Origin: Callorhinchus milii
Taxonomy: Eukaryota
Length of the DNA: 64,000 bases
Direction of reading: 5' to 3'
Assembly: GCF_018977255.1 (NCBI RefSeq)
Contig: NW_024704750.1
Location: forward strand, 8,184,001 to 8,248,000
A model generated the notes under the pieces. It saw only the letters and a list, made by a program, of their open reading frames with translations. It was not told the DNA's origin and searched no databases. Within the stretch, counting starts at the first letter, position 1, and each line of letters opens with the position of its first letter. Positions 7,418 to 64,000 of this stretch are shown one piece after another. A program made the position numbers and the translations under genes.

Positions 7418-10400
7418 GTAAGTATTAAACAAATGTTTTGTGAGTATATGTTTAGGAAACGTTTATTGTTCACTGTAGTTGCTTGTGATATTCAGTGGAG
7501 GAAAAGTACTTAAATGTATAACTGGTCACACCAGGCATTTCTGCTGTAGTTTTCAGAGGTGGATCAATATTCTGTTTTTGGTAATTTAATATACATGAAC
7601 AAACTATCCTAGAAAACACTATTGCTGTTTGATTGGGTTCCAATACCATATTCCTGCAGTTCTGTACCTTACATTGTGCACTAAGAATACACTTCTTGCA
7701 TTCTTTTAGTTTTTCCTATTGATACAGTGACTTATGAGTCAAGTCCTTTAGATCAGCTACATGGACACGATGGAAAAATCATTAAATTATACCAAATTGA
7801 GGTTATTCCGAGAGGAAAAACTGAAAAAATGGTGTGATACTAGTTTAATGGAAAAGTCATGTCTATGCATCCACTTGCACTTTATGATTTCTTCCATTTA
7901 CAGGAAATTTAGGTCAACAGAGAAAACCGAAGTGATGAATTGAAATGGCCTGTAGCACTCAAGTAAATAATCACCAGACCTTTTCTGAAATTTAAGAAAA
8001 CCCTGTAACTAATACTTAAACTCAGAATTCAAAGAAGCCTTATTACAGATAAATTGCCTTGATTTTTAAGATGCATCATGCTGAACTCAAATCCCTGTTG
8101 TCATTTTGTACAGAAACTGCTTGTATTCCTATCCAAAACTTTTGCTGGATGAGTGCAAATGTAAGCTCTTGCATGGCTAGAATAATCTCACCATTGAAAT
8201 GCTGTAAATGTCTTAGGTCCTGTAAAGAGTAACTTAGACTGTGACCTGAGTTCTGGCCTATTCTTCAAGGGAGATTTGTATTTTGGCAGTAATGTAGGAG
8301 CTTAGCACTGCCCAGACAATTGGGGAAATAGAAAAAGCATTTCCGCTTGAAGCACAGCAGTGTCAGTTCTTGCTGTAAGTACATCAGAATTAAAACATGT
8401 AGAAATGTATAATGTTTGAGACCTTTATTAAACGGGTACAGGCTATGTCAGCTGTTCCACTGAAATCCTGGAATCTGTTTCAAAGCTATCAGTTTCAGTT
8501 TAGTCCCTTCTCTGGTTTGTACTGAATTGTTTGATCTCAAATGGAGTACTCCAAATGACCTCACTTTAAGTTGGAGGGAAAAATCAGCCCGGGTTCTTGG
8601 CCTTAATTCCTATCGAGCGGTCCCACAAATGGGTTTATGTGGACGTCAGTTGAAGACTAGTTTGGCTGTGAAGTTTTCTATTCTCGTCTCCCATCTCTTT
8701 CCTTCAGATTTCCTTTTGCAGTCTTGCCAATTTCTTGAATTTTTGTGCTTCTGGCATCTAAGATTGTATAAGTACACTCACCGACTGTTAACTCGGTGTA
8801 CTGTATTCTTCAAGAGGTCAGTTCAAACCATTACCAGAATGGCTTTGGGTTTTTGTTTGAGATCAGTTATTCAGAATTTCTAAAATGAAGCTGGACTAGC
8901 TTGTTTATGCCAATCACGCTTGCGAGCAGGAATGGGGTTGGGGAGATGAAAAAATACTCCTGGATCTGAAGGCTACAGTTGGTACATCAGTATACCTGTA
9001 TAATCTAGGCTTGTGTGAAAAATAGGCACGAGAATGAACAGCACAGCACGTCACTTAATTTTGTTGCTGATTTGTGTTTTAACCCACCATTTTTCAAGCA
9101 TGTAACTATTGAACTTTTGATGCATTTTGATTAATTGAAAATCTGGTGTGACTGATCATTTAAAAATATTTTGCTTTTTGGCTGCTGTGTTTTGTGTCTT
9201 AAGAACTTGGTTATGATTTACTAGTGTAGAAATAAATTTTAGCATTTTAAAAAAAAGCATATTGTTGAGTCAGGGTTTGAATTTTTTTTCCTAAGCAGCT
9301 GTAATGTAACCCCTCATTTCACAAGCCTTAGTTCAATTACCGTTTATTTTGAGATGTGCTGTTAAATTTAGTAAAAATGCATTCTGTGGAAATTGTTTCA
9401 GTGAATATTCATACAGAAATGTTGTTAGTGAGACCAAATTTGAAGCGAAGTCTAAATTCAATAGTTAGTCCACTGAACTAAACTGTTCTTGTACTAAGGG
9501 TGGTTTGAGGTTAGCCATCGTAGATAGGTATCTCACCAAAAACTGAAATGCTGCTTTTAGTAACATTCTTATTATATTTTAAGCTGAATTCTTTACAGTT
9601 GGATCACATTATTTTTAGATAATGTACATATTTTTGCTCTCTGGGATAAAAGTGTTAACTTGTTTGCCACTGCAATTATCACTGGAGGTTAGTACAGATT
9701 TCATTGTTGGCTTTGAGGCCATAGAGAGAGTTGAGCAAAATTTTAAATTTGATAAATCATATTTCATGCTGGGAGGACATCTCAAGCACTTCAGAGATTA
9801 CTGTGGGGTGTAGTGACAGTATATTTTGCAGTGAATGCAGCAGCTGATTTAAGCATAGCAATGTCCTACAAACAGTTATGTAGAGAACGACCAATTTTAT
9901 ACACAGGCTTGTTTGTTGGTCAGGATATTGCGAGAAACTCCCTTTTCAAATAATGCCAAGGGATCTTTGCATTGTGGGGAGCAGTTTTCATCATTAATCA
10001 AAAATCCTTAACCAGCAAATCAAAATGGAAATGTTTTAGGTTGTAATTTGGTTCCAATTTGTTGAATTATTGTGTTGATCTTGCAAAAATCTAATGTAGT
10101 ATTAATCCTGAAATATGCTATTTATTTTTGATGCACTATTTATAGTTGTATTTGTGTTGGTTTTGAGGCTGGTTTAAGACATGGTTGTTGGAAAGTGGAT
10201 TCCTGTCATGCAGTGTGTTTTATCAATGACAATATTTCTAAGTAGCCAGATAAGGCTTGAATATATTGGGGATGACTCTGATTACTATCTATGTAAGGAG
10301 CATAACTGGGACTGAGTAACTATTGCCATATCAGGACATTGGCATCAATGTGTGTGTGTGTGTATCGTAATTGGAAAGATGAAGGTTTAACTTTATTATT

Positions 10401-43735: not shown

Positions 43736-44135
43736 GCATTATATTGAAAGTGAAGGGAGATGATTAATACAAGTTTTTGTAACACTGGTGTATGTTTGTG
43801 TGCTTTTTTTGTACTGCTTTAAAACTCGCACCTCCACAAACTGGGTTGGTCTGCACCATGGGTATCTCTTCATTGCCTCTAATGGTATTCAGGTAGTGTG
43901 TAAGAAGCTGAAAGAGGATGATGTGCATACTTTCAGAGGGTGAGAAGGGTGAAATAATGGAAACTCTTGTTTAACTCAAACCTTTGGAAAGGCAGGTTTT
44001 CTATAATTACTACTGTGCAGATGCAGTAGTTGTCAGCATCTGCCTCCCTGCCCTCCAGGTTTTGAAATATCAACAAGTGTGTTGCAAATGGATTCATGAA
44101 ACTTTGTGGAGTTTGACATTTTGATGATAACTGTT

Positions 44136-44452
44136 ATAATAATAATAATCCTTGCATTTTATATAGCGCTTTTCACGTCGGGAGGACGTCTCAAAGCGCT
44201 TCACAGAAGACACTGTAAAGTGAATTGACTGCAAATTTGTGGGCGAACGCGGCAGCCAATTGCGCACAGCAATGTCCCACAAACAGTCGTAGATTGAAAA
44301 TGACCAATTTATTATTGTTTTTGGTTTTGGAGGGATTATTATTAGGCGTGTGGTGTAAGGAAACTTGCCCAAGGTTTCGCCCTGCCTAGAAATGAACTCG
44401 GGTCTCTCGCTTGCAAAGCGAGTGCTCTAACCACTGAGCTACAGGACTCCAC
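44136..44452 (-). mobile_element. Full-length tRNA-SINE, same family, intergenic
   Basis: Reverse complement of the 40107 element along its whole length. Confidence 0.92.
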
Positions 44453-46279
44453 ATGACTGGACTGTTGACAACATTGAATGAGAAAAGCATCGTCTGGTAT
44501 GAACAGAACAACAGGATCAAAGTATATTAACTTTAGAGAGGTAGTGGCACAGCAGATAGCATGGACTAAATGGTCGAAGTTTAATTCTTTCCAGTGAATT
44601 AATTATTCAATACAAAGGAATGAAAATGACTCAGATATACTGTAGAGTGGATTAACTATTTTGCGGGCGAAACATGGCTGCAGTTCGCTCATAGCTTTGT
44701 CCCACAAACAGCCATGGAGTGAGTGACTTTATTTGGGGATTTTGTTGGCCAGGTCACTGGGAGATTCTCTTTTTAAGTAGGCATCGTCGATCCACTTTAT
44801 AGTATATCCTGCAAAGTGCTTTGAGACATCACAACAACTTGATGCAATTACATCAAATGCAAGGATCAGTAACTTGATTTATTTTGGTCAGCCAGGTGTC
44901 TGTCTGACACAAACAGAAACCTATCACCGTGCTTAAGAGTATCCAAAGCACACAGAATACAACATGCATTTCGCTTACCCATGGAAATTGTCCTGTGTCT
45001 GGAATGGAATAGCACACTTGCTCCCTGGAGAGGCGTACTCTGCTTACTGATTACACAGCTTTAGGTACGGATTGGCAAGAGGCAAGTCTTTGTAATCAGA
45101 ATGTGTGATGGGTGTTTGACCAGCTAAAACTGCATAGCTTCCCACAAAATGCAAAGACTGTATTTTTCTGTTGATTGGGAATGTAGCACATGTATGTCCA
45201 GCAGAGGGCATTCTATCCCAATCTGCTTATACTGCTCTCACTTTGCCATTGATGCAGTTATTTGCACCCAGGTTTTTAAAATGTCTACAAGGTTATTCTG
45301 TACTGCATTGCACTTACCAACCACTTTGGTACATTTACTGCCAAACAGAAAAAAAAAACTCTAGTGTCTAAATTGTGCTTTCGTGGTTGAAAACTGTTCA
45401 TGGGCCTATCTTTACTGTTCCTATTGCCATGGTAAAAATCAGTGTTGCTAGTACTTCCCTTGTTCGCTATCCCCCATCCCAGCAATAGTTCAATTTCTAT
45501 TTCCATCTTATTTGAAAGAGATGCGGTGAAGTTATTTATAATGCAATATCTTGTAAATCAGATTGCTATGATTTCCTTCTATTCTGTATTTTCTTCCTCC
45601 CACCCCACCCTTATTTGGAAGTAAATTTCATCAGTGCTCAAATCTGCCGTTAGACTGCTGCCCAGTGTTTCATGCCATAATCTTGCTTTATTTTCTGACA
45701 AAAAAAATTCCCAAGTGCAGGATAATTACTTTCACAAATTTCAAATGTTTGAATAAACAGGGACATTGTTTCTAATAACTCTTGTTGCATAGGTTTTCTG
45801 TTGAGGTGTCATCATTGGGAGTTTATTGTGCAAAAGGTGTTCAGCCTCAACTTATGCCCTGAATCTTAAATGCAACCTTCTCCAGGCTATAGGATTATAT
45901 GATCTAGCATTACTTCCTCTCTAATGCCACTGTAAATTGAAGGTAACTTGTTTTCAGATGACTCAAATTCGTGCCCAGAGAGCCTGCATAAAGTCAAAAT
46001 GATTTGATAAAAACAGAATTGGTCAGATAATTCATGCATTGATTTTAAGCAGCAGATATCCATACGGATGCTTATGAGCAAACAAACACTCGCTGAAGTT
46101 TAGCTCCAGCCTAAAAGCCAATTGGCTGATCATCATGCATCACACACCTGCTCAGGCTTAACAGCTAACAAATTCTGACACTGTACAAACCGCTCATTTT
46201 ATGCATTCAGCCCAGAGGTCAGAACAGCAATGCACAGGTACTCATGGGCACTCGATTGTAATTAATTGATACAAAACAT

Positions 46280-48497
46280 TGCAAAATCAGCACACTTAAG
46301 ATTTTAATTATAATTTAGAAATAAAATCTTAACAGTAAATTTCTTTGTGTAAATAATGTGCAAGACATATACACTACATTATTTGCAACAGAACACATTT
46401 CAAATGGCAATTTCAAAATGTGCAAGTAAAACAAACAAAATTCTGTTTGCCTGCAAGGACTTGAGGATACAACAGAGTCCAAGGCCACAATTTAATGTTA
46501 ACAGATTCTAAATTCCTTATACCATATGACTTCATATAACCAACACCAGTTACTCATTCTAAACAATTTCACTTTCCGCACAAGGCATTTATTTGCTTGT
46601 TGGAAATCTGTACATGATTCTGGTGTATTTTATACATTTTACAGCTAAAGGATTCAATCCAGAACCAGAAAGTTTTTTTAAGCAATACATTAAAAATACC
46701 AAGGAAATACAATAATATTTACTCAAGTGTTATAAGGCTATATAGAAATCATACAATTTTGACTTTTTTTAAAATCAACAATTGCTCTCAGTAGCAGAGT
46801 ACAAATTTTAGAACCAGACTTCAGCGGAGGAACAATCGCACATCTTTAACATAAACATTTCATGGTAATCTAACAGAAATTATCTTTATTAATATTTAGC
46901 AATGACATTCTTCATCCTTCAGTTCCATTGCTATCACACAAGGGGGGGCCAGTTATCAGCAACACTGAATCTCATTAAAAAAAATGGTATCCTGAAACAA
47001 TTTCAGATGATATAAATGACTTGAGCCTTGTTTGTGGATCAGAAATTCATCCTAATCCTTCAGTTAATTTACTGACGCTCCTTCACTGACAGTTGTTACG
47101 GTTATGCTCTCCTTTTTGAAATGTCGTCCTCAATGACATGAACTACACATTACCACAAGGTTCTTGCTGAAATAACTAGCTCAGGTACGGTTCAATTTGA
47201 AACATCAATTTAGCACCGATCAAATTAATACTTCATTGGTTTATAAAAGAACAATTTGGGCTTTTAAGTAGACGAAACACTTGACACGATGAGTTCAAAA
47301 AAACAACAAATCAGTTTTTCACACATTGTAGCAATGTGCATTTCCTTCACTGATTTGGCTCAAACCATCTTTCACACTTGACTGAATAATGATTTGGAAT
47401 TCTTACAGATGTATTGAATAAAACAACACATTAAAAGCCTTCACAAGGGAAGTTATCCTGAAATTGTATCACTAATTTATGCATTCTTCAAAGATAGGCA
47501 AAATACTGCAATATTTTACTCTTTAACCTAATTGTAATTAAACAATTTATTACCATTATAAACTTGGTTTTAGACTTTTATGGAAAATTATCCAATTTTG
47601 TAGACAATGACTTTAAAAATAAATAAATTTACACCAAAAGTAGAATTCAGTTTCAAACAACAACAAGATTACATTTGTAGAGCGCCTTTCACGTCGGGAG
47701 GACGTCCCAAGGCGCTGGTCAGTCAATGGTCAGGACCCGAGAATGGGGGAGGGGTGGGGTAGGCGTGAGGGAAGGCAGAGTGGTGGGAGAGCAACCAAAG
47801 GCACGATCGAAGAGAAAGGTCTTGAGACCGGCCTTGAAGGAGGCAAGGGAGGAAGCGAGGTGAAGGGACCGTGGGATGGAGTTCCAGAGTGTGGGGGCAG
47901 AGAGGCTGAAAGCCCGGCCACCGATGGTAGGACGGATCAGGTGGGAGACATGGAGCAGACCGGAGCCCGATGAACAGAGGGATATCAAACAGTGATATTT
48001 AGGTTTAACAATTAAACTTAGGGCTGTGCTGATTCATTGGTGAATAAAGCAATACTATATTTTTGAGTCTCTTAAGTTAAACCAGAATAGCATGGGGCTT
48101 CATGTGATTTGGAGAGAATGGTAAGAGTCTATGCAATAGAAGTCCTGAAATGAAAATGGAAACCTCTTGTGGAATGAAGTATTTTTATTAATTTTCTTTC
48201 TTGATTGTAAAATTGACCTGATTAATTTGCTTTAGATTGGATTGAATGCTAAAAAGCATTTCAACCACTCTTAACTACAGTGTTCAACCATGTTTGTGTC
48301 AATTCAGTGCATCCAATTACAGTAAATATATTAGCAAAGCCTCAAGTACAGAAATGTAAATTTTCTTCACATGTTCATATGAATTCCACACCAACACCTA
48401 TGCATACACAAGTGGTCTAAAACAGAGAGGTAAAGCGCATACTGAACATCTATTAGCAGCTTGTACACATATTGCACCTAAACTTAGGACTTTACTT
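46280..48497 (-). other. GCH1: Putative GCH1 3' UTR
   Basis: Minus-strand AATAAA at 48184, 46885 and 46588, and ATTAAA at 46303-46308 followed by a GU-rich tract. The extent is inferred. Confidence 0.45.
47660..47984 (-). mobile_element. L2-clade LINE 3' fragment with a 7-bp TSD, downstream of the GCH1 stop
   Basis: TIGGRAFSLSAPTLWNSIP...SFKAGLKTFLFDRAF; (TTG)n tail; TCAAACA at 47653-47659 and 47985-47991. Confidence 0.92.
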
Positions 48498-48624
48498 TCA
48501 GCTCCTAATAAGAGTCAGAAACTCTTCGCGGGTCTTTGGGTCTTCACGGAATACACCCAACATGGTGCTGGTTACTGTTTTACTGTTCATCTTCTGCACT
48601 CCTCTCATAACCATGCACATATGT
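48498..48624 (-). CDS. GCH1: GCH1 exon 6, coding part
   Basis: ccccctcccAG acceptor; [41 protein letters not shown] (TGA). Confidence 0.97.
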
Positions 48625-49118
48625 CTGGGAGGGGGAAAAAAAACACATTATAAACAATAAAGTGACACCTGTGATTTGCTGAAAGGTTGCCTGGCTTACA
48701 GAATATGAATCTCGCCTGCCTATTGATGTTGAGTCTACTGCAAATGCCATATGCTTTCTTACATCTAGTTTGCCAGTATTTATTAATCTTAAGAAAATAA
48801 CAATAAAGGCCTCTGTGATGGTCACAAAATAACCATAGTTTCAGCCACTCTAAACAGGAATGAACAAAGAAAACAAGAGCCTTTGAAAAACTCATATCAT
48901 CGCACATATTGCATAGATAACTTTACAGGGAACTAATGACACGGAGTTTCTTTACAAACCAACTAATTCAGCAAAGTAAGTTTCTTTAACAAAACTGTAC
49001 AATTATGTGCATCAAGTATGTTTGAGTAATAAGTTAAAGTTGGTTAATTTTGATCAGAAAAGTAAATTGTGGATGCAAACAGCATTAAAACGATGTGAAT
49101 TATTGATTCGGGACTCAC

Positions 49119-49203
49119 GTGGCTTCAATCACAACTCCCACACCGGAAGGCTTCAAGGCTTCTGTGATGGCTACAGCAATCTGCTTGGTGAGACGTTCTT
49201 GTA
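49119..49203 (-). CDS. GCH1: GCH1 exon 5 (85 nt)
   Basis: aacAG / AC|GTGAGT; [29 protein letters not shown]. Confidence 0.96.
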
Positions 49204-50465
49204 CTGTTCCCAGGAAGAAAGAGCAGCGTTACATGATTACATCGAGTGATTACGGCATGGGAACAGGCCATTCAACCCAAGTCTGTGCAGGGTGTATATG
49301 CTCCATACTTCAGAGCCTCACCCCTCCTATCCCTTCTGTTCCGTTCTCCCTCAAATATACCTCATGGATCACTGAGTGAAGCTGGTAACTTGGGAGGCAT
49401 ACACAAGGAAGAAGAGAATAGAGGGTAAATAGGAGGAAATCATGGGGAAAATCATTTGAAAAAAAANTCTGCCAAACTCATTTAACACTGGTAGATTGTT
49501 GAAAACTTGACAATTTATTTGTAGATGTTAAAATAAATATATCAATTGCTTAAGGTATAAAAAGCTTATTGATTTCTTTACAACTATTCCACCCTATGAA
49601 TACGTTACCACCATTCATAATTCTGCGAACAGCAATCTCTTAATTTAGACATCTATACAACAGTGTTATTTAAACATTTTGGTGTAATCCGAGTAAAATA
49701 CTTATTTACAATGTTTTATTGTAAATATTAAACAGAGTTCGCATTGTGTCATTGCTGAATAGGATTAGCACTAAGATGCTTAATTCCTCTTTAGTAACGA
49801 TAATTCTGCATCACACAACAGTGGCAGGAGTTCGTCCAGGCAAATCCACTTTAATGTAGCGCAAGTAGTGGCGTCAGAATTGTACAATAAACTGCTGCAG
49901 CTTTAGCCCAGGAGCACTGATATTGACCTGCTTTTAAAAAGGTCATGATGGTGCTGAGTGACTGGAACAGCTGGGCTGCAGTTCTGTTTAGTTGTTGATT
50001 GAAAATAGTTTTTCTTTTGAGGGGGTGGGAGTGATATAAAGAAAAAAGTCCACTTTACCACAGTGCAAAAAAAATTATCTTGCCACAATGGAGAAATCCC
50101 AATTTAAGTACACATCAAAATACATGTACTCAGCAGCAATAAGTCCCTCTTCCATGATCCTCTCTTAATGTCAGTGTGCCATTCTTCCAGCAAAACCAAG
50201 GTTGCAGTGAAATAAAACAGTGCTGGAAATGCAACTTAATTTCAAAGGCTTCAATAACCTCTGCTAAATCACGTTTTAAACTCCATCTCTTCTCCCACCC
50301 AATAAAAAGTAATTGTGGACCTGTGCTGAACTGTGTTGGCAGGACTGCTACGTATGAAAAACTTCACACTGAATGTAACAACTTAACATGAAGTCAGAAC
50401 TTAAATATAAATAAGTAAATAAAACATATATTGCAACTACCTACTCAATTCAGGCAAATGTTTAC

Positions 50466-50497
50466 CTTGGAGTCTCCTACTGTATATTTCAACAATC
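50466..50497 (-). CDS. GCH1: GCH1 exon 4 (32 nt)
   Basis: tttttcAG / G|GTAAAC; IVEIYSRRLQ. Confidence 0.95.
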
Positions 50498-52397
50498 CTG
50501 AAAAACAAAATCATATAAATATCTTCTTTAAACAAATATAAAAATATAGTGGATATCTCTGAAAAGCAAAAATTGTTCTAGATTTTCTGCCACCCAAAAA
50601 GTTACTCCAAGTTGACTATATTTTAGTATTCCACTTAGAGGCTATTTTACAATGTTGATCAATAGGAATAAAATAAATTGGAGACATTTTCTTTGAAAAT
50701 GTTACATGAAGGAAACGATTTTTGCGGATTCTGTTACTCTAAGCGTTAAAACCAAAGTTGAAATCATACGGCGTCTGAATGTGTGAAGTGCTTCAGCATC
50801 GCTCAGTTTTAAATTAATGCTTCTGTCTAATATGCTTTTACTTGGCAAGGGAGGGAGGGGGGAAACCAAATGTTGTAGATCATTACACTATCATCACTGT
50901 AGAACAGTTCCAGTCTCCTAATTGTTTGTCTAGGTGAATTTTCATTTCATGCTCAGGGAAGTACATGGACCTTTATCCTGAAGGTAATATAAAGTTCACT
51001 GCTCCATGGATGACCATCAATGTCAAAGGGACAAAAATAAAAATGCACAGATGGTTTCATTTTCCATATAATGTAATTTTGCTTCTTGAAATCTTTCTGT
51101 AGGCCAAATAACCTCTAACCACAATACTGTATTTTCACCATGGATTAGATCAGATTCTTTAAATGCAGGTTGATGTGTCGCAGTTGTGGCATTTATGTTT
51201 TATTCCATGTTTCTTAAAAAAAAAATGCATTTTGCACATTCAACACACCGTTGATAGTTTAACTTTATTTTCTAATCATGCAACAAGGGATTTTTTTCTG
51301 AGCATTTCCAAGCCAGTAAAGAACAACCTTACTTTATTCATTTCAATGAATAGCAAACGCTGGAATTCATTACTAAATTTAGGGTGTCCTTTTATTTAAC
51401 ATGAGACAATCACATTTCAATGATAAGCTTCAATTAAAACAGTTAAAATAAACACAGGACACATTAAAACAGGTGCAGAAAACTGGGTTCCTTTTAAAGT
51501 GTTTGAAAAGTTACATTTAAGCAGAGAAGTACATTAGCATTGGATTTAAGGCAGCTACAATACTGGGAATGTTAAAATTTAAGGTCATGTGTGCATGTAC
51601 CTCCTGCACTCCCTATCTAGTCAGTAGTCAAGAGTTGTGTGGGTGCTCTCTGTTGGTGTTCCCTCATTAGGTCACATCACAACAAGTGGTTAATAGATGC
51701 ACCAAATATTTCAAACAATGTTGACCTGCAGGGTTACATAAAAGCTCAGAACAATGACTCCCTAATGGAGTGTTACAATTGGAATTGAATTACTTACTCG
51801 TTTGGTTCAATACCCAGGAATTCGGTGACAAAAGGCAGAGCTATTATACGCTCAGCGGGTGCCATAAAAATAAAATGTCAGATTTATTGCAAAATGTCAA
51901 CTACAGTTATTCAAGCATTTGATTGACGTTGGTTAGCAAGGTTAGTAACATTCTGTTAGGAATGCGTGCACTGAACTGATTTTCTATGTGTTTATGCCGG
52001 GCAAATAAAATTACCTCCGTTGGGTTGATTATTGGTTTATTTTTTAGCTTTGCGTTTCACAAAGGGTAAATATACAAGAGTGCACTTTGACCATCTCTGT
52101 ATAACTTGTTCAAATTGAAACCGTGCTGTGATAAATGGCCAAACTTGCAGAACAGAGATGTGAGATGGGGCATGAATCCAAACAATTATCTGTTTAGACG
52201 GTTTGCATTTCAGTGATCAACCTCATTATTTAACAAAAAGTATACCAATGAACCTTGAAATAGCATTCAGAAAAATGCACTTAGCTTCTGGCCAACATGG
52301 TTTTAACATCTTCAAAAAAGTCAATTCTTTCAAGAAATAAAGTAAGGTTGCAAGTCACTGGTTTAGGGCAATCGCAGTCATCAGGTACTGCACTTAC

Positions 52398-52453
52398 CTG
52401 GCTAACTTGCTGAGGCCAAGGAGTCGCTTGTCAGGTAGATAACCTATATGTAC
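52398..52453 (-). CDS. GCH1: GCH1 exon 3 copy B (56 nt), closer to the canonical sequence
   Basis: ttctttccatcctgtAG / AG|GTAAGT; VHIGYLPDKRLLGLSKLAR (human VHIGYLPNKQVLGLSKLAR). Confidence 0.92.
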
Positions 52454-53144
52454 CTACAGGATGGAAAGAAAACATTGACTACACTTGACCGCACACAGTG
52501 GGACCAGGAGCCATCTCACCCCAAAATTCGAATATCTTTGGATTAGAGAAGTGCTGATGCTTTCCAACAGGTCCCAAATCAGTATGAGGCCAAATGTGTG
52601 CAATGGGATGACCATGCAATCATAGCAGCCTTTTGGAACAAACAGCAAGCTGTGACTAACATGACTTCAAGGAGGTCTGGTCATTCAACTACAAGCCAGT
52701 GAACTAAACTGCACAGAACTTTGGTCTCCTACGGTTAGTAGCAACCAGTGCTGTTTATCTCAAGTCTTTGGCAAAACATTAATCCCAGCAGTTCTCCAGT
52801 AATAAAATGATTATGTGAATCTTTGACTTGATTAGTGCACTCTGAGAGCATAAATATTTTGTATTTTAAAAAAACATTAAAATGTTTTTTGTAATTGTTT
52901 TACGAAAATAGCTTACAAGTACACATGCAACAACCATATTGTGATGGTTTAAATGTTAGTTTTCTACCTGCTGTTAACCAAAGACTTAGGATACTCGCCA
53001 CTGATACAGCAACAGGGGAAAAGCAGTCTTTGTTTCATTGCCTTTTCAACCCAATTGGAACGGTGAGCACTGAATTGAAACGAAAGGAGCACCAATTCCC
53101 ATGTGCTGTATCTGTGTCTCTAGCAGGCACTCATGCCCAGTTAC

Positions 53145-53200
53145 CTGGCTAACTTGCTCACTCCTATAACTGTTCTGTTAGGTAAATAACCAATTGAAAC
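53145..53200 (-). CDS. GCH1: GCH1 exon 3 copy A (56 nt), candidate mutually exclusive exon
   Basis: ctcctcttttgcAG / AG|GTAACT; VSIGYLPNRTVIGVSKLAR; phase 0-2, joins exon 2 to exon 4 in frame. Confidence 0.82.
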
Positions 53201-56200
53201 CTGCAAAAGAGGAGACAGTTTCAAAGACAAAGAATCTTACGCTCACAAAGTGTAGTCATTACAGGCTTTGAAGACGATCCTTGCAATATAGCCGAGGAGA
53301 TGGACAAGTAGAATTATTATTGCTATAGCAATAATTTGAAAAAGAACCACTTGCTACCCATTTAATGCACTGCTTGTGCTACCCTCACCCATTTACTCCG
53401 ATCTTTTTGGACTGTAAGGTGGAATCAAACAGAGGCAGTTAAGACCAACTGGAAGGCAAACAGATTTTATGAATGAACTCAAAGGCTTGCTGAGAGCAGG
53501 AGATCAAAGAATTCTAAGATGCCCAAGAATATTCGTGGCCTGATGCAAACTGCGAGAACCAAAGTTCAGCAGATAAGACTAACTCTGCATTACATTTCTC
53601 AGATGAATTATGATCCTCTATTAGTTTACCGCCAATAGTATTTAGTTAACAGGAGCATAACAGAGCAATAACAAAAGTGGACAGATAAAATGTGCAACAT
53701 AAACCACACATACTCTAAACAGTCATTTATAACAGACAATATTGAGAACACTGCAAAGAAAGGAACAACAGTAATATGTCATTTTCTGTTTAAGCCTGGA
53801 CTGTTTAATTATTATTGCAATACTCCCACTTGAGCACATACTTCAAACAACCTGCACAGAGAAAAATCAAGGATAAGCTGGTTAAATGAACAGCAGGGTC
53901 ATGGGTTAAGACATTTAATTGACTGGACAATCCTCAATCTGCAGTCAGCATGAGAACACATTATTGCTTTTCAATCAAATTGTCAAAATAGGGAAGAAAA
54001 AATGAAGATGAAGATCCTGGCTACAGATTTTGGTGTTTAATAAAAGTAATCGTTTCAATCTCCAGCTGGGAGCATTGCAGTTTCAGATCCACCGTATGAA
54101 GTTAGAATACAAATTTGATATTCAATACAAATTTACATGGTGCCTTTCACATCGAGGACATCTTAAGGCGCTTAACAATACTGGCTTCGCATCCGAGGTA
54201 GGGGTAGGAGACGAGGGGTGTGGGGAGGGGGCAGATGAAAGAGGGTTGAAAATGAAATTAAAATATCAGACCACTCTGTCAAAACATCTCAAAGTGTTTC
54301 AAAAAGTGAAGGTTACTTTGAAGTCTAGTGACTGTAACTATTAGTTGAGCATTTAACCTACACAAACATCGACCTGAACAAATGTGAGATGAACAACTAA
54401 ACTGAATTGCCTTTTTTATGAATTTGGATGAAGGAGGAATACTAGCCAGGAAAACAGATTTAATTCCTTGCTCATTTTTGAAATAGTGCTACGGGAGCTT
54501 TTGACATTGACCTGAAACCCTTCCTCCTCTTTCCCACGAGAACAAGTAGAGATTGCTTTGCTTTAACATCTCATGCCAAAAGAACGTCATTCTAAAGGTT
54601 TAAATACATGGAGATTTGTGGAAACCCATATTATTTAAAAAGAGGGTTCTTCACTTCCTACTTTGGTTCCTCGCATTGTAGCCAGCTGAGAGAATTGAAA
54701 CCAACCTGTTCTCAAACAACTAACTAAGTGAGGTCCCACTGTCGCACCTCCAAGGGAATGTGGCTTAGTTATTAACTTCAAGTGGGGAACAGTTCATGAT
54801 CATGATGCTTCCTACAATTATCCATTATTTATTGCAATGCAGAACAGGAGCAATGTTGTTGCGGGAGGGGGTAAGATTTGTGCAAGCATATAAGGATTCA
54901 CAAGTGAATCCGAGCTAATTTCCCCACTCACAACAAATCAAAGGCCCCACCTGCAACAGACAGCGACATGCCTTTGGCAATGAAAGTCACATTTGGTTGG
55001 TGCCTTCCAGGCGATACCTGATCAGGTTGGGTAGGAAGAGCAAAGCACTGAAACATGAGCTGCGTCAGTGTGCTGGAGATGTCCTTCAGTGGATTCTGAT
55101 GCAGGGGCGTTGAATTTGGGTGTACAGCTTGCACAGACATTTGTTGTCATATAAAGACTATACTGCTGACATCCTAGATGCTTAGAGTCAAATTGATGGC
55201 ATTGCTCATTTTAGTTTCCCATCCGTGAACTCCTCACACATAGAATTGCTTATAACGATTACAGTGGAGAAGACAGCAGAGGGTGTCACAGCAAGGAATG
55301 ATGCAATTAACTCTACATGGCTCATTCACTCAGCAATGTTCTTTTGTAGGGTAGGGCAAGATGGCTTTGGTTAGGATTTGTGAACAATGAAATACGGAGA
55401 AACAAGACAAAACATCCGCCTGCAGAGTTCAAAGGGTTAAATATAATGAAACATGTAAGCTGTTCTTGCAGATTACTGATGTAATCTCCAGTGTAGCCAA
55501 GCTGCTGTCTACTGTGATCTGCTTTAATACGGTGACGACTGGCCCGAAGCATTTCTTGTGCTCTGCAAAGTGTTTTGAAATAAATGTCAGGAACGATTTG
55601 ATTAGTCAAGCTGCTGAAGGATAAATCTTTCCATCTCTCTTTTCTGAAATTCATGCTTTTACCTTCTTCTACTTTTGGAGCATAGGTTTGAGTCATGTCC
55701 TCTGAAGGGCTTGTTTTTAAATAGAGTAAGTTTCTACTGAAGCGCTTTGATGGTCCACAGGAACTTCTGACAACTCACTCGAGTGGCCATAAATCCCAGC
55801 TGAGCCTTAACACTGGTATCAATGGGTGGGGGAGGAGAGAGAGCAAATCACACTTCACCTCAATATTCTCCTCAATTACTCTCTATATCTGCTGTGGTTT
55901 GTCAGCTAGAAATCAGAAGCAGCAAACCTCCTTGACTGAAATCATCTTATTATTCAGCTGGGTCGCGAAACAGAACCTGGCAGCTCCTCAGTCTGCATTG
56001 GTTCAGCTATTCATGGCATAAACCCACTTGAATGAGGCCATATGTTTGCCACTAAATTAGCTGCACTTTGCAATGCAAGTTTGACGACATTGGATAACAC
56101 TTGCCATATGTCCTTTAGCCAGACTGCAATATACACAGTACAAAAAAAACCTATCCACACAATTTACGACCAGGTATTTACAAACCTGATGTTTTGTGTT

Positions 56201-56816
56201 AATTGTGACCAGTGGTTGATTGAGAATATCAGAAGCTATTTGATTTACAACATTTAGGAAAGGGTTAATTGTGAAGCCAAAAAGTGGGAAAGTGTGGCAA
56301 GCTGTGGTGGAATATGAACCACGGTCTTCAAAAGAAGATTTACCAGAGAAGGATTTCTGAGTGGAGAGGATGTCTCGCAATTCTTCAGTCTTGCTGATCA
56401 CCTCTGTCCACAGCTACAGGGGTGTTGAACAGTAAAACCCACCAACTTACTGTAGAAGTAAGTCAGCCTCACTGTACACGCAGTATATGGGTGTCTGTAC
56501 TGTACACTGTATCTGCTATATGCCATCCTTGTGTGAAATAATAAGATTTATTTACCTGTTTGGTAGAATGAGGTACACAATGAACATTTCAAGGGGATAA
56601 TTTTAAACACGGTCTGCAGAGTTTCTGGGATTGGGCCTTACATTTTTCATGGTCCCAGGCTTTAGATCATGGTCTTAAAATTTAAGACGCAAAATATGGA
56701 AGATTCTTAAATTTTGAAGTCAGTTTTGCACAATACCAATTTAGAACTGCAGAAAAACAGTTTGATTTAAGGACGGAACTAAGGACATCCAACTAAGGAC
56801 GGAATTTGAGAATTTA

Positions 56817-57270
56817 TTAATAATAATCCTTGCATTTGATGTAGCGCCCTATCATGTCAACAAAACGTCTCAAAGAGCTTCACAGGATTGCAATGTAAAG
56901 GGATTAACTGTGTATTTTGTGGACGAAATACGGCAGCTGGTTTACGCACTGTTCCACAAGCAGCCATGGGAGTGATTGACCAACTCCCAAAATTTCAAAA
57001 GTTTAAAGACCATGAGGAATTTCAGGTCTCAGAGCACATAGCTCAGGGTGAACAAAAAGCCCTTTATAAAATAATCCTTGCATATGATATAACACCTTGT
57101 CTATATTTCGCCCACAAAATATATAGTCAGTTCACTTTACAGTATATTCTGTGAAGCGTTTTGAGACATCTCGAAGACGCAATAAGGTGCTACCTCAAAT
57201 GCAAAGATTATTATTAGTATTGTCACGTCATTAAGGCTTCACAGAGTATATTGTAAAGTGAATTGACTGT
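56817..57270. mobile_element. Cluster of SINE 3' fragments in opposite orientations
   Basis: Minus copy at about 56817-56985, plus copy at about 57105-57217, short minus pieces at about 57070 and 57235. Confidence 0.8.
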
Positions 57271-57694
57271 CCTTCCAGATCCCATTGTTAGCCATGGTAG
57301 ACAGTATCCAGGATTGAATGGGAGAAGCTCCTTGTGACAGGATAGTTGGGAGAACAATCGGAACAAAAACAAGTGACAAAAAGTTATTAAAAAAAAGCTA
57401 AATGTATGAATGTATCAAATCAGCCACAATTCCAGAGTGGATGGGGAAGAGATACACTCTCCACTTAGGTGCATTTCCCTGCGTCCAATACGCTAGTTAA
57501 TTTGCAGATGCAAATATTTTATTTGGACAGAAGTCTGCAAAGAAATTGTACAAATCATGCTTTGTACAAATTTGTACAAATCATACAACATTCCTTTCAT
57601 ACCTGATCCCACCCCACAATTTGTGTTTTGTTCCTTATTATATAATGTGTCTTCGTTGCTCCATCCAGAAATATCTGAGAGATCTGGTTTAACA

Positions 57695-57770
57695 ACAACA
57701 AGATTACATTTGTGTAGCGCCTTTCACATCAGGATGACACCCCGAGGCGCTGGACAGAGTACAGCATTTT
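57695..57770 (-). mobile_element. About 76-nt L2-tail element with a long TSD
   Basis: Flanked by AGATCTGGTTTAACA (57680-57694) and AGATCTGGGTTTAACA (57771-57786). Confidence 0.8.
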
Positions 57771-57800
57771 AGATCTGGGTTTAACAGGTCTGTTGATTCA

Positions 57801-58037
<237 letters not shown>

Positions 58038-59447
58038 TCATACTGCTATTTTCCCCATTTCTAGAAGCACATTTTTCTCCTTATTCAATATCCAATACAG
58101 GCTTATTCAAAATCTGGTCATTCCGTTTACATTTACAATTCCAATGCAAACTAATCTCAGGTCTCTCTAGACGAGCAATACATTCAAATGCAGATACATT
58201 TGTTCCTGATGTGGTTCTGCAGAAAAGGACTGGGTTTATTTCCATGCAATAATAGTCCATCTGATTCTTTTCTTGCAGAAAATATATAATGGTCAAGAAA
58301 ATGATACGAAGGGGAAACTCAAAAACCACCATTCCTTCAGCAGTTTGACACAGGACCATTTCATTTTCTCTTAGATATATAAGACTTCTGCATTACATTT
58401 CCACTCCACACACGAAAAAAAGCTGCTGAAATGATCCGAATATATTAGATTCACTCCCTCATTTCTTAATGGGATTAGAATTACAAATTTCTTCAATATT
58501 TTGTAAAAGGAATATTTCCCAATGTTTAGCCCTCACAGGCATTGTGAAGCATCCCAGTTTAGGTGTAGTACACTGGCTCTTACATCAATAACTTAATTAG
58601 AAAGGATCATTGCGGTGAGGTGAAGAAAATAATTGTCTTATGTCAGTGATCGCCCTAAATTAATGTTATACTTTGACAAAGGCAGGAAAGATTATAAAAA
58701 GAGATATCCTTGATACAATTTACATTGATATAACACCTTCCATGTTGGGAGGACTTCTAAATTTAATGATACTAAATACTAAATAAGATCTGATGAAAAT
58801 TCCCAGCTCATTTGTATACTGTATAAACCACAGTATTGAAGTGACTTGTTGCAGTGTAGAAATCTAACACCAAAAATCTATCTATAGTGATCAACCAATT
58901 AAACAGTAAATAAATATGGTCAGTTAAAGACTGATCAGCAAAAGCATTATGAAAGCATTATGATTTTTTCCTGTTGTTAAACCTGTGAACAAGTTGAAAA
59001 CATAACCATCTGTTGCTCACTGTATCCAGCACTGCCGTGGGTTGTTAATTTCCTGTATGTAGTCAGCTATCTATGTCTGCAATCCTGGAAACTTTGAAGT
59101 GTCCATCATTCTTTGTTCCTAAAGCAAGGCTTAAAGCAATGTTTACTCTTGCTTTGTAGATGTTTGTTTCATATTTTACATTTTAAAATATCTCATTTAC
59201 ACAATGTTCCTTTTTACATGTCACATCAGCACTATATTTAAGAATTTATTTCACATTGTAATTGCGTTCTGATTTATTCTCTCCCTTCCCCCTCCCTCGA
59301 TATTTTGTATTTTTGAGCAATTAAAGCTCAGATGTAGATTTCAACACGGCCTACACTGTTTACACTGTAGCCTTTGTTGCTTCTTGTTATCTCAGTTTAA
59401 ATCAGTATTAACTTTGTTAACTGCAAGCTTCCTAATAGATGCGAGTG

Positions 59448-59824
59448 TAATAATAATAATCCTCTCATTTGATATAGCACTTCATCACGCTTTTGAGACG
59501 TCTCAAAACTCTTCACAGAATATAATGTAAAGCGAATTGATTATATATTTTTGTGGGCCAAACATGGCAGTCAATTGCGCACAGCAGTGTCCCACAAACA
59601 GTCGTGGATTGAGTGACCACATTTTTTTTAATTAACTTTTTTTTTAAGGGGATTATTACCCCTGGAAAAGCAATCCGCCAACAACTGGGTTCCTACTTAC
59701 TCCTAGGTAAACAGAGGCACGTGGAATAGGAAACTTACCCAATGTTTCGCCCTGTCTGGTAATCGAACCCAGGTCCTCTTGGTTGCGTTGCGAGTGCTCT
59801 AACCAAAACGCTGCAGGACTCCAC
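59448..59824 (-). mobile_element. tRNA-SINE, long subfamily
   Basis: Same head and tail plus an internal segment of about 60 nt (CCTCTGTTTACCTAG...GGATTGCTTT). Confidence 0.88.
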
Positions 59825-60162
59825 TGAACGTCATGTTACATATTAACCTTTGGCTTGAATTGCCCCAATTAGAATGTTGAATAAGAAGTTGAGAAGTAGA
59901 AATCATGAACTCTGCAGTCAGGTGTAACTAGAATACTTTTTACAGCATGACAAAAATCACACCAGGATTGATTTTCAGTCTTTGGCTTGCAACATTTGAC
60001 TTGACAAAGCGTTATCTGTTCTTTTCACTTTTCTTTGATGGTTTTATGAAAAAAAGAATTATCTGACCTTAATGAGAAGTAAAGGCTGGTTTCTTGAGAT
60101 TATATGTCTATGTTACTTGGTTTCAAATTTAGATATCTGCAATTTTTCATCCAAATAAAGAA

Positions 60163-60325
60163 ATAATTTGGTCACTCAATCCAGGACTGTTTGAGGAACA
60201 CCGTTGTGTGCAATTGGCTGCCACATTTCACCCACAAAATTCACTTAGACTATATTCTTTGAAGCGCTTTGAGACGTCTCGGAAACATGATAAGGCGCTA
60301 TATCAAATGCAAGGATCATTATTAT
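60163..60325 (+). mobile_element. SINE 3' half
   Basis: GGTCACTCAATCC...CAATTGGCTGCC...AAGGCGCTATATCAAATGCAAGG. Confidence 0.85.
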
Positions 60326-60639
60326 CTATTGACTCGTGAGCAAAACTGTAGATTCTGGTCTATGTCTGTGTGCTGCCAATGACTGATGAGCGTTAAAGGA
60401 CAATATCTAACGGCAACGTTAAACATCATATCTTCAGTGCCAGTTAGCATGGCGGAGTGGCAGCTGTTGCTGGGAAGATCTAACAGCTTCTGGGAAGTGT
60501 ACAGCGGCCTTTGATGTGCTGAATTTCAATCACATTCGGACACAACATGGGCACTGCTGACGACACTCAGATTGCGAGGAAATGATAAATCCCGAGTTAG
60601 TAGCCACTTCTCAGGAAGCTACAACCGCACAAACAATAT

Positions 60640-60653
60640 GTTGCTGCGGCAAC
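60640..60653. promoter_or_regulatory. Candidate RFX X-box in GCH1 intron 1
   Basis: GTTGCTGCGGCAAC fits GTNRCY(N)nRGYAAC and lies in a locally CpG-rich patch. Confidence 0.3.
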
Positions 60654-61570
60654 TGTCTGGGTTGCTCCGGTTGTCTCGCCACCTCGGTGATGGAAAGCTC
60701 CAATACAAATGATCATTGTGAAGACCTTATCAACAATGTTGTTTAATCGGGGAGAAGGGTGGGAGGAAACACAAATGAAAAGCTGATATTAAATGAACAC
60801 GTCACTGTGAAGAAGTAGATGTTGAAAGATAAAAATGATTTACTCCTTCATTGCCTGACAGTTTCATTGCACAACAAACATCCACCACCTGCTTTACATT
60901 CTCTGTTTCAGTGAAGCTGTGAGTGATCAAACACATCCATTAAGGAAACATTACTGCCTCACCACACAGTCCAAATACAAACCTTTACACTTGAGGTGAC
61001 AGATATTCAAGGTGTTTAATGATAGAACCACTAGCAAATTCATCTGGTCAGTAAACACCCTCCGTCCAGAGTGGGCCTTTATCAAGTTAATCACAGCAGG
61101 TTAAGCAGCCGCCCAAAGGTAGGAAAAGAACATGCGCTTCAACTACTTTAAAGCCTAAAACTATAATATAGATAAAGTGAAACTTATTTTCCATTTCCAT
61201 TACTGTTTTCCAATAAACACTATACAAGGTAGAGGCACACTTCATTAATTAAGAATCATGGTTCCAATTACTTTCGAATTACATTTTGCTGTCAAAATAT
61301 ACAGTCAATTCACCTTACAGTATATTTTATGAAGCTCTTTGCACGTCTCAATGACGTGAATGCAGGATTTTATATATTAGAGGTTCAGCTTTTTTTTTTG
61401 AAAGAACAGACTGTATTTGTTTTTAAATAGCAGACTACTGAATTTCAGCCACTTCTGATAAATCGGATTTCTACAAAACTGATCTTGCTCTTCAAAGGCA
61501 AGATTCACAGTGCAGATACAGACAACAGTTCTCTTCCCAGGGGGACGATGTGAAGAGGATGGAAGACTCA

Positions 61571-62165
61571 TAGAGTCCTGTAGCATATTGGTTAGAGCAC
61601 TTGCCTCTCAAGCGAGAGAATACAGGTTCAATTCCCAGACGCGGTGAAAACGTTGGTAAATTTTGTTACTCCGCACGCCTCTGTTTACCTAGCAGTAAGT
61701 AAGACCCGGTTGTTAGTTGATTGGCAGATTGCTTTATGGGAGTAATAATCCCATCAAAAAAAATTTTAAAAAATAATAATTTGGTCACTCAATCATAAGA
61801 AATGCTAGACGAAAAAAAAAACAATGTCCATCTAGTTCGCCTTCCTCTTTCCCAGCAATCACCTGCACATACGTCCCGAACTACCAATGTACTATATCCC
61901 ATAATGTTATTTCCTAAAAGAAAATGATCTAATCTGTGTTTGAAGGAATCAACATTTCCTGCTTCAACCATCTCCCTAGGGAGCCCATTCCACAGGTTTA
62001 CAGGTATACAATCCATGACAGTCTGTGGGACACTGCCATGCGCAAATAGCTACCATGCTATGCAGTCAGTTCACTTTACAGCATATTCCAGAAAGTGCTT
62101 TGAGCCATCTCAATGATATAAGGCGCTATATCAAATGCCAGGATTACTATAATATTATTATTATT
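61571..62165 (+). mobile_element. tRNA-SINE, long subfamily, interrupted by a CR1 insertion
   Basis: Head and internal segment at 61571-61794; tail resumes at 62014. Confidence 0.85.
61795..62008 (-). mobile_element. CR1 LINE 3' fragment nested in the SINE
   Basis: VNLWNGLPREMVEAGNVDSFKHRLDHFL is the CR1 ORF2 C-terminus; ends TTCTTATG; CAATC duplicated at both ends. Confidence 0.88.
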
Positions 62166-63114
62166 ATGGTATATGGTGGGGGACAGGGAGAAGGGAGGGA
62201 GAGAGAGAAAAGGGGGTAAATGCCCAGGACAGGCAGAAAAGGTTATTAAACACCGTTTTCCTAGTAAACATTTATTACAGAAGATATGAGTATATCCACC
62301 TTTGAGGTGCATTTATGCAAGCTGAACACTATAAGCGCATCCTAAACTGCTTCAAGGGAGTGGTATAGGTAGTTTTTAAAAGGACAAAAGCCTTATTACA
62401 ATGCCTCAGACGCAACCCAATACATTTTATAATAGTAATGATTGCACTTCATATCCGAAGATGGCCGTTCACACAATGTGAACACCTTGATGCGTGAATT
62501 TGTTTATAGGGTAGAAGCTGCTGCCCGCACTGCAACAACACTCTTTAGATAGCAAGCAGTGTAACCTGGTGTCAATGAATATCTAAGAAAACCAGACCAC
62601 TTTCTAACCACACTTGCAGAAACCGTAACCTCTGTAAAGTGATCTGCGATCTGCTATCACTGGCCATATTCTCCTTCTGGATCCACCCATCATCCCATAT
62701 AAATTCATCTGCTTACACATTTCTTATTCAGGAAATCGGGACAAGTAAAGCAGTCTCTAAGACCTGAGACAGTGTGTATATATCACAATAACATATATAA
62801 TATATTTACACACACACATATATTGGTGAAGTTAAGTATCCGCTTGACTGAATGGAGAACCACTGTAAGAATGCACAGTATCATTATAGTATCATTGCAA
62901 AAAAAAACAGAAATAGTAACATTGCAAAAGAAGGGTGTTTCCTGATCTTTCCCAACATCTTCTGATTCAAGTTTGTTTTGCCTCTTTGTGGCACAAATCG
63001 AGTATTACTCACAGTGTCTCATGGGTCCTTCACAAATTTAAGTTACAAAATCAAATCCAGGAAACCAAATCAGAATAAAAATTCCCCAAGATCACAATTA
63101 AATCTGAAGCCAAG

Positions 63115-63118
<4 letters not shown>

Positions 63119-63151
<33 letters not shown>
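63119..63151. repeat. (TA)n microsatellite
   Basis: About 16 perfect TA units. Confidence 0.95.
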
Positions 63152-63154
<3 letters not shown>

Positions 63155-64000
63155 GTAAGAATTGCTCTGACCTGGACAATTCCCTGTGACAAGCTTGTCT
63201 ACAAAATGTATAGTCACCACACTTTTATTCTAACTTCTGTAATCCTGTGAAGCCCTTTGAAACATTCTCCCATTGTGAAAGACACAGTATCAAATGTAAG
63301 GATTATTATTATTGTTATAAAAAGGCATTCATGTGTTAGTCAAGAATCCAAACAAAACCAAGTCATGTCAAATGGATCTTGTCAAAACAAAATGTACTCT
63401 ACCAAATTAAGCAGCCTTGCTAAATTGTGTTAGCGTGAGCTAACATCTTTCAGTTGTGCATCAACCACTTTGTACTTTTTGCTGCATGCCGTGCTGTTAC
63501 GAATGGGTGAGAGGCAGGTGACTCACAGAGTGCTTGTTGGACAGCAAACACTACACTCTAAGCAGCATCAGTAATGACACATTAGAGGCAACACATTAAA
63601 ATTATGCACCATAATGACCATAATTTTGCATACACAAATGTGAACATACACACCCCAAAATGAGCCATGTATGTAAATCCTCATTTGTATCTTACAGTAT
63701 TTGATTAAATCAGACGGAGTGGAGCATCTTATCTCCTAAAAACACATCAGTTTATTCTCCCCCACCCCCAGTGCAACAGCAGTTTGATGGGATCACATAT
63801 TTAAATTATAAATGCTCTTTGCATTTGATATGAAGTCTATAATATTGAAATATTTCAAAGGCAATTGCTGTAAAGTGGAGCGATTGTATATTTGTAGGAC
63901 AACCAATTTATGCACAAAAAGGTCCTCCAAACAGCCATGAAGTGAATAATCAATTGATCTAGAGCACTGTTGGGCAAGACAATGGGAGAAACTCGATTTG

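What the first reader, a model, noticed from the sequence alone, without database searches (positions are those of the whole stretch)
53145..53186. The swapped GCH1 segment alters the GLSK active-site motif (VIGVSK versus LLGLSK)
Seen: copy A has PNRTVIGVSK, copy B has PDKRLLGLSK. Established, from memory of E. coli FolE structures: the I-G-L-S-K-x-x-R segment lines the GTP site, with Ile132/Leu134 at the guanine pocket and Ser135/Lys136/Arg139 near the ribose-triphosphate. Both copies keep S, K and R but differ at the two hydrophobic positions and in loop charge. Copy A's VIG matches the bacterial SVIGLSK, while L to V in GLSK is atypical. Each copy keeps a different subset of the human residues (A: N, V; B: H, K, L, L). 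Inference: the isoforms may differ in Km, cooperativity or GFRP/BH4 feedback.
Basis: partly seen in the sequence, partly recalled or inferred. Interest (0 to 1): 0.7.

Follow-up and report, generated by a model that had tools for sequence, protein, structure and literature searches.

The report
Ancient swappable active-site exon in GCH1
In the elephant shark, the gene for the enzyme that starts making the cofactor tetrahydrobiopterin has two alternative copies of one active-site exon; the copy not seen in its transcripts here is almost unchanged in sharks, rays and sturgeons, so it likely encodes an overlooked second enzyme form with a slightly different substrate pocket.

Summary
Observation confirmed. 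GCH1 (minus strand, elephant shark) has two tandem 56-nt copies of exon 3, A (53200-53145) and B (52453-52398), both AG/GT-flanked. Using both or neither shifts the frame. All 4 informative transcript assemblies, of 6 laid, splice exon 2-B-exon 4; none shows A. An A-type exon is annotated in 6 of 20 cartilaginous fishes and 2 of 5 sturgeon/paddlefish species seen. It differs from the paddlefish copy at 1 of 19 residues but from its neighbour B at 7, which points to one duplication before cartilaginous and bony fishes split. The lasting A/B differences are Ser/His153, Lys(Thr)/Arg161 and Val/Leu165. The loop-charge and Val/Leu162 differences are drift of B in cartilaginous fishes, and Ile163 is common family-wide. 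Val165 is rare (1 of 150 diverse homologues) yet occurs in intact bacterial genes. Leu165 borders the GTP pocket; the mutationally proven BH4/GFRP residues lie outside the exon. Likely a minor, conserved isoform with altered GTP handling; kinetics untested. Known kind (tandem-exon substitution), auto-annotated in RefSeq, not found in my paper searches. The scan noted it before in a shark genome (e1-8160800).

The parts
53145..53200 (-). GCH1 exon 3 copy A (56 nt; human-numbered residues 152-170; S153, T161, I163, V165)
   Evidence: Sequence with AG/GT ends. A-type isoform records in 8 other species. No spliced A contig in the 6 runs laid.
52398..52453 (-). GCH1 exon 3 copy B (56 nt; H153, R161, L163, L165), the default exon
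   Evidence: Joined to exons 2 and 4 in runs X1-X4. Used in the species' only listed protein record, P0045. Consensus donor CAG|GTAAGT.
52454..53144 (-). 691-nt intron between A and B; holds GCATG at +9, TGCATG at +216 and +527, ACTAAY at +185, +309 and +406 (candidate RBFOX and QKI sites)
   Evidence: Motif scan. At least 3 of both motifs in 2 of 1268 overlapping 691-nt windows. Picked post hoc from 7 motifs; conservation not testable.
57828..57937 (-). GCH1 exon 2 (110 nt; CEHH zinc motif, F122 loop)
   Evidence: spliced to B
50466..50497 (-). GCH1 exon 4 (32 nt)
   Evidence: joints
49119..49203 (-). GCH1 exon 5 (85 nt)
   Evidence: joints
48498..48624 (-). GCH1 exon 6, coding part to the stop codon (R235, R241, E243)
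   Evidence: joint 48624-49119

Best explanation
GCH1 exon 3 is tandemly duplicated, copy B is the one spliced in the transcripts seen, and copy A is likely an ancient, rarely used mutually exclusive alternative whose enzyme is predicted to be active but to handle GTP differently because Val replaces Leu165 at the pocket. Shown: two in-phase 56-nt exons; only one-exon products keep the frame; B is spliced here; A-type isoforms are annotated in sharks, rays, skates, sturgeon and paddlefish with near-identical sequence. Inferred: one duplication before the cartilaginous/bony fish split (about 450 million years, recalled), with later loss or non-annotation in teleosts and tetrapods. Inferred: B is the default through its stronger donor, A is switched on in some tissues (likely brain or muscle, by RBFOX/QKI sites just downstream of it), and double or no inclusion is removed by nonsense-mediated decay. 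Inferred and untested: Val165 changes Km or cooperativity, and Ser153 in a barrel strand may secondarily shift the BH4-driven compaction. I put about 0.85 on A being a selected coding exon and about 0.55 on a measurable kinetic or regulatory difference centred on residue 165.
For: Exon anatomy and frame test. A-type records: Pristis pectinata, Chiloscyllium plagiosum, C. punctatum, Scyliorhinus canicula, Leucoraja erinacea, Amblyraja radiata, Acipenser ruthenus (two loci) and Polyodon spathula. Five X1/X2 pairs compared differ only within exon 3. Mean differences over 19 residues: A-A 1.8, B-B 2.2, A-B 6.6; window A versus paddlefish A 1, versus window B 7. Val165 is in 10 of 10 A rows but 1 of 150 diverse homologues, and in 5 of 80 bacterial folE loci picked with a GVSK query, so it is rare but tolerated. 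S166, K167 and R170 are kept. An AlphaFold model of a shark A isoform matches rat GCH1 (target TM 0.94, rmsd 1.8, pLDDT about 90 over the exon). L165 borders the GTP pocket (PMC7750480). U1 pairing: B -13.2, A -8.0 kcal/mol. A GFRP gene is present in the genome.
Against: No A-containing spliced contig in the 6 runs laid; the 4 informative ones, from 2 studies, all use B. 8 of 8 unnamed Logan proteins in shark, skate and sturgeon clusters are B-type. 14 of 20 cartilaginous species seen, including this one, show no A record. RefSeq X isoforms are automatic models whose read support I could not see. Val-for-Leu is a conservative change, and PMC7750480 found L165 not displaced between states. The proven allosteric residues lie outside the exon. 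One sterlet copy of A carries G164C at a position invariant in 150 of 150 homologues, so A can decay. A's donor is no weaker than those of constitutive exons 4 and 5 (-6.8, -5.8), so donor strength alone does not explain its rarity. AlphaFold is insensitive to point changes. The splicing motifs were chosen post hoc.
Confidence: 0.6

Rival explanations
1. A is a real, translated alternative exon but the two enzymes are nearly equivalent; A is conserved only because any working GCH1 exon 3 is tightly constrained.
For: All A/B changes are states seen elsewhere in the family: S153 in 33 of 150, I163 in 41 of 150, V165 in 1 of 150 and in 5 of 80 bacterial loci. Catalytic and allosteric residues are shared. 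No A-type exon in 179 of 179 mostly teleost and tetrapod proteins checked, so those lineages seem to do without it.
Against: A redundant exon should be lost or drift back to Leu, yet Val165 and Ser153 are fixed in 10 of 10 A rows across chimaera, sharks, rays and sturgeons.
Confidence: 0.17
2. A mainly changes BH4/GFRP feedback rather than GTP handling: Ser153 in the barrel and Val165 at the pocket uncouple inhibition, giving a feedback-resistant form.
For: The earlier rat model had L165 moving into the pocket on inhibition (as described in PMC7750480). The 20-stranded barrel contracts on BH4 binding, and residue 153 lies in a predicted strand. A His153Tyr variant is listed among GCH1-deficiency patients (PMC13147586, table passage).
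Against: PMC7750480 saw no L165 shift. Its named switch residues (F122, H126-E128, R235, R241, E243) are outside exon 3 and shared by both forms. I had no coordinates to test contacts.
Confidence: 0.12
3. In the elephant shark itself A is a relic no longer spliced, or works only as a poison exon whose co-inclusion with B sends the mRNA to decay.
For: No A joint; a 4.4-kb unspliced contig of run X1 runs through A without a break. The species has one listed protein, B-type. A has a private T161 and a non-consensus +5 donor base. A+B gives a premature stop.
Against: Open frame, intact AG/GT and a 14/20 pyrimidine tract. Only 1 residue of 19 differs from shark and paddlefish A, which a dead or purely poison exon would not keep. 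Contigs drop rare forms.
Confidence: 0.08
4. A encodes a weakly active subunit that mixes into the decamer and damps total activity.
For: GCH1 active sites are shared between subunits (recalled). One sterlet A copy tolerates G164C.
Against: S166, K167 and R170 are kept in every A, and GVSK occurs in intact bacterial genes.
Confidence: 0.03

Closest known systems
Tandem exon duplication-derived substitutions / mutually exclusive homologous exons (PKM exons 9/10, PFKP; catalogues PMC8373072, PMC9741552)
   Same: [quoted passage not shown]
   Different: GCH1 is absent from the human catalogue (0 hits in the one supplementary table, PKM present; 0 in the main text of PMC9741552). The event is kept in cartilaginous fishes and sturgeons and was not seen in tetrapods. 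The exon length, 56, is not a multiple of 3. No protein-level evidence.
SCN-alpha exons 5a/5b (PMC12772994, abstract only)
   Same: Ancient duplicated mutually exclusive exons with RBFOX sites in the intron and regulation traced to elephant shark.
   Different: There conserved RNA structure was shown and NMD is not the main factor. Here no helix above background was found, frameshift makes NMD plausible, and motif conservation is untested.
Human and rat GCH1 with GFRP (PDB 1is7, 6z86, 7alb; PMC7750480)
   Same: Same fold and all named catalytic and allosteric residues; B matches the human H153/L163/L165 state.
   Different: The mammalian variants among my hits are truncated or frameshifted after exon 2 or 3. 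None swaps a homologous active-site exon, and none of the five solved chains whose alignments I saw has Val165.
E. coli FolE (NP_416658.1)
   Same: VIG at 131-133 and S135, K136, R139 as in copy A.
   Different: Leu134 is kept; Ile at this position is common across the family, so the match carries no special bacterial signal.

Membership tests
Mutually exclusive homologous exons from tandem duplication | Two homologous neighbouring exons of like length and phase with intact splice sites | tested here: met
   56 nt each, 38/56 identical, AG/GT
Mutually exclusive homologous exons from tandem duplication | Only one-exon products keep the frame; transcripts hold exactly one copy | tested here: met
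   Frame test; contigs of X1-X4 carry one 56-nt exon
Mutually exclusive homologous exons from tandem duplication | Both exons are used in this species | tested here: inconclusive
   Only B seen; contigs drop rare forms
Mutually exclusive homologous exons from tandem duplication | Both exons conserved and annotated as isoforms in other species | tested here: met
   A-type records in 8 species; 5 isoform pairs differ only in exon 3
Mutually exclusive homologous exons from tandem duplication | A mechanism enforcing exclusion (steric, U2/U12, RNA structure or NMD) | tested here: inconclusive
   691-nt intron with a 23-nt AG-free zone (no steric block), GT-AG throughout, no helix above controls; NMD inferred from the frame
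Mutually exclusive homologous exons from tandem duplication | Tissue-regulated use and distinct protein function | not testable with these tools
   No raw reads, tissue labels or assays
GTP cyclohydrolase IA (GCH1/FolE, PF01227) | T-fold with CEHH zinc motif and C212 | tested here: met
GTP cyclohydrolase IA (GCH1/FolE, PF01227) | G-x-S-K-x-x-R pocket motif | tested here: met
   Both copies keep G164, S166, K167, R170; x is Val in A (1 of 150 homologues)
GTP cyclohydrolase IA (GCH1/FolE, PF01227) | Catalytic activity of the A form | not testable with these tools
   Needs an assay
GFRP/BH4-regulated animal GCH1 | Allosteric residues F122, H126-E128, R235, R241, E243 and a GFRP gene | tested here: met
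   Present in P0045 outside exon 3; PF06399 match in the genome

The most novel reading that the evidence does not exclude
Early jawed vertebrates evolved a splice switch in the rate-limiting BH4 enzyme: a brain- or muscle-specific exon that swaps the pocket residue Leu165 for Val and barrel His153 for Ser, giving a GCH1 with different GTP affinity and reduced BH4 feedback, in the manner of PKM1/PKM2. It has been kept for some 450 million years in cartilaginous fishes and sturgeons and lost in teleosts and tetrapods.
Probability: 0.3. Interest if true: 0.72.

Novelty: new member of a known kind. Interest (0 to 1): 0.5.

Why it matters
GCH1 sets BH4 supply for dopamine, serotonin and nitric oxide, and is a disease gene and drug target. 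No swap of a homologous active-site exon turned up in my searches. A natural, long-conserved Val165/Ser153 variant gives a ready pair of enzymes for testing the disputed role of Leu165 in substrate binding and feedback. It also adds a case of an ancient vertebrate splice isoform apparently lost on the line to mammals, which human-centred catalogues cannot show.

Tried and rejected
No RNA holder was on record among the 13 runs listed; the runs laid are guessed RNA and are contigs, so lack of an A joint is not proof of silence. X5 and X10 do not reach exon 3. Steric exclusion rejected: 691-nt intron, 23-nt AG-free zone before B. Docking-site RNA structure not found: best perfect helix -21.2 kcal/mol (both arms in intron 2) against -16.8 to -46.8 in 8 control stretches. 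Third copies or remnants of exon 3 in the GCH1 introns and in the paralogue's introns 2 and 3: none clearly above reversed-sequence controls (scores 24-41 against 24-44; A versus B 58). Assembly artefact rejected: the copies differ at 18 of 56 nt and A is conserved in other species. Independent duplications rejected on distances; no tree was built because 19 residues are too few. Gar, bowfin and coelacanth did not come up, and no other fish DNA could be fetched, so intron motifs, exon order and loss in teleosts/tetrapods are untested. The E. coli guanine and phosphate contacts could not be read: two structure papers were not held and three keyword searches gave nothing usable, so those roles remain recalled. 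No complex was predicted, since it would pass by likeness to solved decamers. Searches for a description of this event listed none; I saw listings, plus passages of PMC7815744, which is unrelated. Subscription papers and bioRxiv supplements are not covered.

Full report
Gene and observation. The window holds exons 2-6 of GCH1 on the minus strand: exon 2 57937-57828, exon 4 50497-50466, exon 5 49203-49119, exon 6 from 48624. Exon 1 lies about 2.7 kb beyond the window's end. The named record P0045, Callorhinchus milii GCH1, matches these exons, and its listed contig length equals that of G000:C9. Between exons 2 and 4 lie two 56-nt exons, A (53200-53145, VSIGYLPNRTVIGVSKLAR) and B (52453-52398, VHIGYLPDKRLLGLSKLAR), both AG/GT-flanked, 38/56 nt identical, 691 nt apart. 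Either alone gives a full protein; both or neither gives a premature stop. The second GCH gene of the genome (C3) has one exon 3, VHIGYLPNKKVVGLSKLAR, and no remnant of another.

Use in this species. Six coded runs were laid, all as contigs and only guessed to be RNA. X1 and X2 show the exon 4-B joint and a loose end matching exon 2. X3 and X4 have one contig each whose spacing fits exon 5 + exon 4 + one 56-nt exon, with depth over B and none over A. X5 and X10 do not reach exon 3. So 4 of 4 informative runs (2 studies) use B, and none shows A. An unspliced 4.4-kb contig of X1 passes through A. Contigs drop rare forms, so this shows that B is made, not that A is silent. The species' cluster lists one protein, B-type.

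Conservation. A-type exons appear in records named for Pristis pectinata, Chiloscyllium plagiosum, C. punctatum, Scyliorhinus canicula, Leucoraja erinacea, Amblyraja radiata, Acipenser ruthenus (both duplicated loci) and Polyodon spathula. That is 6 of 20 cartilaginous species and 2 of 5 sturgeon/paddlefish species whose records I saw. Five X1/X2 pairs compared differ only inside exon 3. Over 10 A and 10 B rows (one catshark B row is from a sister species), mean differences are A-A 1.8, B-B 2.2, A-B 6.6 of 19. The window's A differs from paddlefish A at 1 residue and from its own B at 7. One duplication before the cartilaginous/bony fish split (about 450 million years, recalled) explains this best. 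No A-type exon was found in 179 other, mostly teleost and tetrapod, proteins with a readable exon 3 (P0269-P0459 less 9 rows set aside as cartilaginous, one of them wrongly). These are partial cluster listings, so loss is not proven. All 8 unnamed Logan proteins in shark, skate and sturgeon clusters are B-type, fitting a minor A form. That RefSeq X isoforms usually rest on transcript alignments is recalled; I could not see their support.

Which residues matter. In human numbering, only 153 (S/H), 161 (K or T/R) and 165 (V/L) separate all A from all B; 163 is I or V in A and L or V in B. Among 150 homologues clustered at 50% identity, 165 is L 143, I 6, V 1; 163 is L 74, I 41, V 33, T 2; 162 is V 106, I 41, L 3; 153 is H 105, S 33; G164, S166 and K167 are invariant and R170 is in 144. 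In 80 bacterial folE loci chosen with a GVSK query (biased), 165 is L 72, V 5, I 3. So Val165 is A's rare, fixed signature and is tolerated in intact genes. The acidic loop residue and Leu162 are changes of B in cartilaginous fishes; sturgeon A and B differ at four positions only.

Structure. An AlphaFold monomer of a bamboo-shark A isoform has pLDDT about 90 over the exon, places residue 153 in a long strand and 165 at the start of a helix, and matches rat GCH1 (target TM 0.94, rmsd 1.8). This is weak evidence, as such models ignore point changes. In PMC7750480 (passages and parts 3-4 of the text) an earlier rat model had L165 shift into the GTP pocket on inhibition; the authors found no such shift. 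They name F122, H126-E128, R235, R241 and E243 as the switch, with contraction of the barrel and five-helix bundle. Those residues are outside exon 3 and common to both forms. Docking simulations in PMC9862521 (passages) place S166, K167 and R170 in the binding pocket. A His153Tyr patient variant is tabulated in PMC13147586 (passage). A GFRP gene is in the genome. A change in GTP handling is therefore the more direct prediction, and a change in feedback the less direct.

Splicing mechanism. No steric block, no U12 site and no helix above controls were found. B's donor pairs best with U1 (-13.2 kcal/mol against -8.0 for A, though exons 4 and 5 are weaker still). The A-B intron has three GCATG (two as TGCATG) and three ACTAAY; at least 3 of each occur together in 2 of 1268 overlapping windows, probably this intron itself, and singly in 37 and 18. 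RBFOX and QKI bound downstream of an exon promote it (recalled), which would make A a brain or muscle form. These motifs were picked from seven after the fact and are a lead only. NMD would clear double and null inclusion (inferred).

Known or new. The kind is well known (PMC8373072, PMC9741552, PMC12772994). GCH1 is absent from the human catalogue table and text, and five searches listed no paper on this event. The isoform exists as automatic annotation in other fishes, though not in the record seen for this species. This scan noted the same exon pair in a shark genome (e1-8160800); I had reached my reading before seeing it, and it is not independent support.

Verdict. A real and ancient alternative exon; new member of a known kind; the functional difference is likely but untested. 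Interest 0.5.

Noticed in passing
P0257 versus P0258 (Acipenser ruthenus, two loci): One of the sterlet's two duplicated GCH1 loci has an A exon with V152A and G164C, the latter at a position invariant in 150 of 150 homologues: A seems to be decaying in one copy after genome duplication.
   Followed up: partly
P0001 (Polyodon spathula gene model): The model carries exon 2 twice, followed first by A and then by B; probably an assembly or prediction artefact, but it shows both exons in paddlefish.
   Followed up: partly
G000:C3:96015300-96026400 (L003-L005): Second GCH gene (gch2-like) with six exons and a single exon 3; intron 2 is only 228 nt.
   Followed up: yes
G000:C9:20234172-20238280 (L090, L091): GFRP (PF06399) exons on the same contig as GCH1, about 12 Mb away.
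   Followed up: partly
window 6880-7428 (+): Large open exon that resembles SAMD4A/Smaug, the tail-to-tail neighbour of GCH1 in human (both recalled, not tested).
   Followed up: no
window 52740-52734 (-): Perfect TACTAAC branch-point/QKI motif in the A-B intron, about 280 nt upstream of B, followed by an AG a few bases later.
   Followed up: no
alignment A1: Ser153 of exon A matches the invertebrate state (amphioxus, starfish, scallop), whereas lamprey, gch2 and exon B have His. Either a reversion or a duplication older than the gch1/gch2 split.
   Followed up: partly
window 44130-44840, 47650-47960, 56800-63830: Many dispersed copies of short repeats with very high contig depth, probably SINEs, in GCH1 introns 1-2 and the 3' region.
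   Followed up: no
window 49200-56850, run X1: Extensive unspliced intronic contigs of GCH1 in one run (pre-mRNA or DNA carry-over).
   Followed up: no
window 36509 and 49467: Two single N bases; neither is in an exon discussed.
   Followed up: yes
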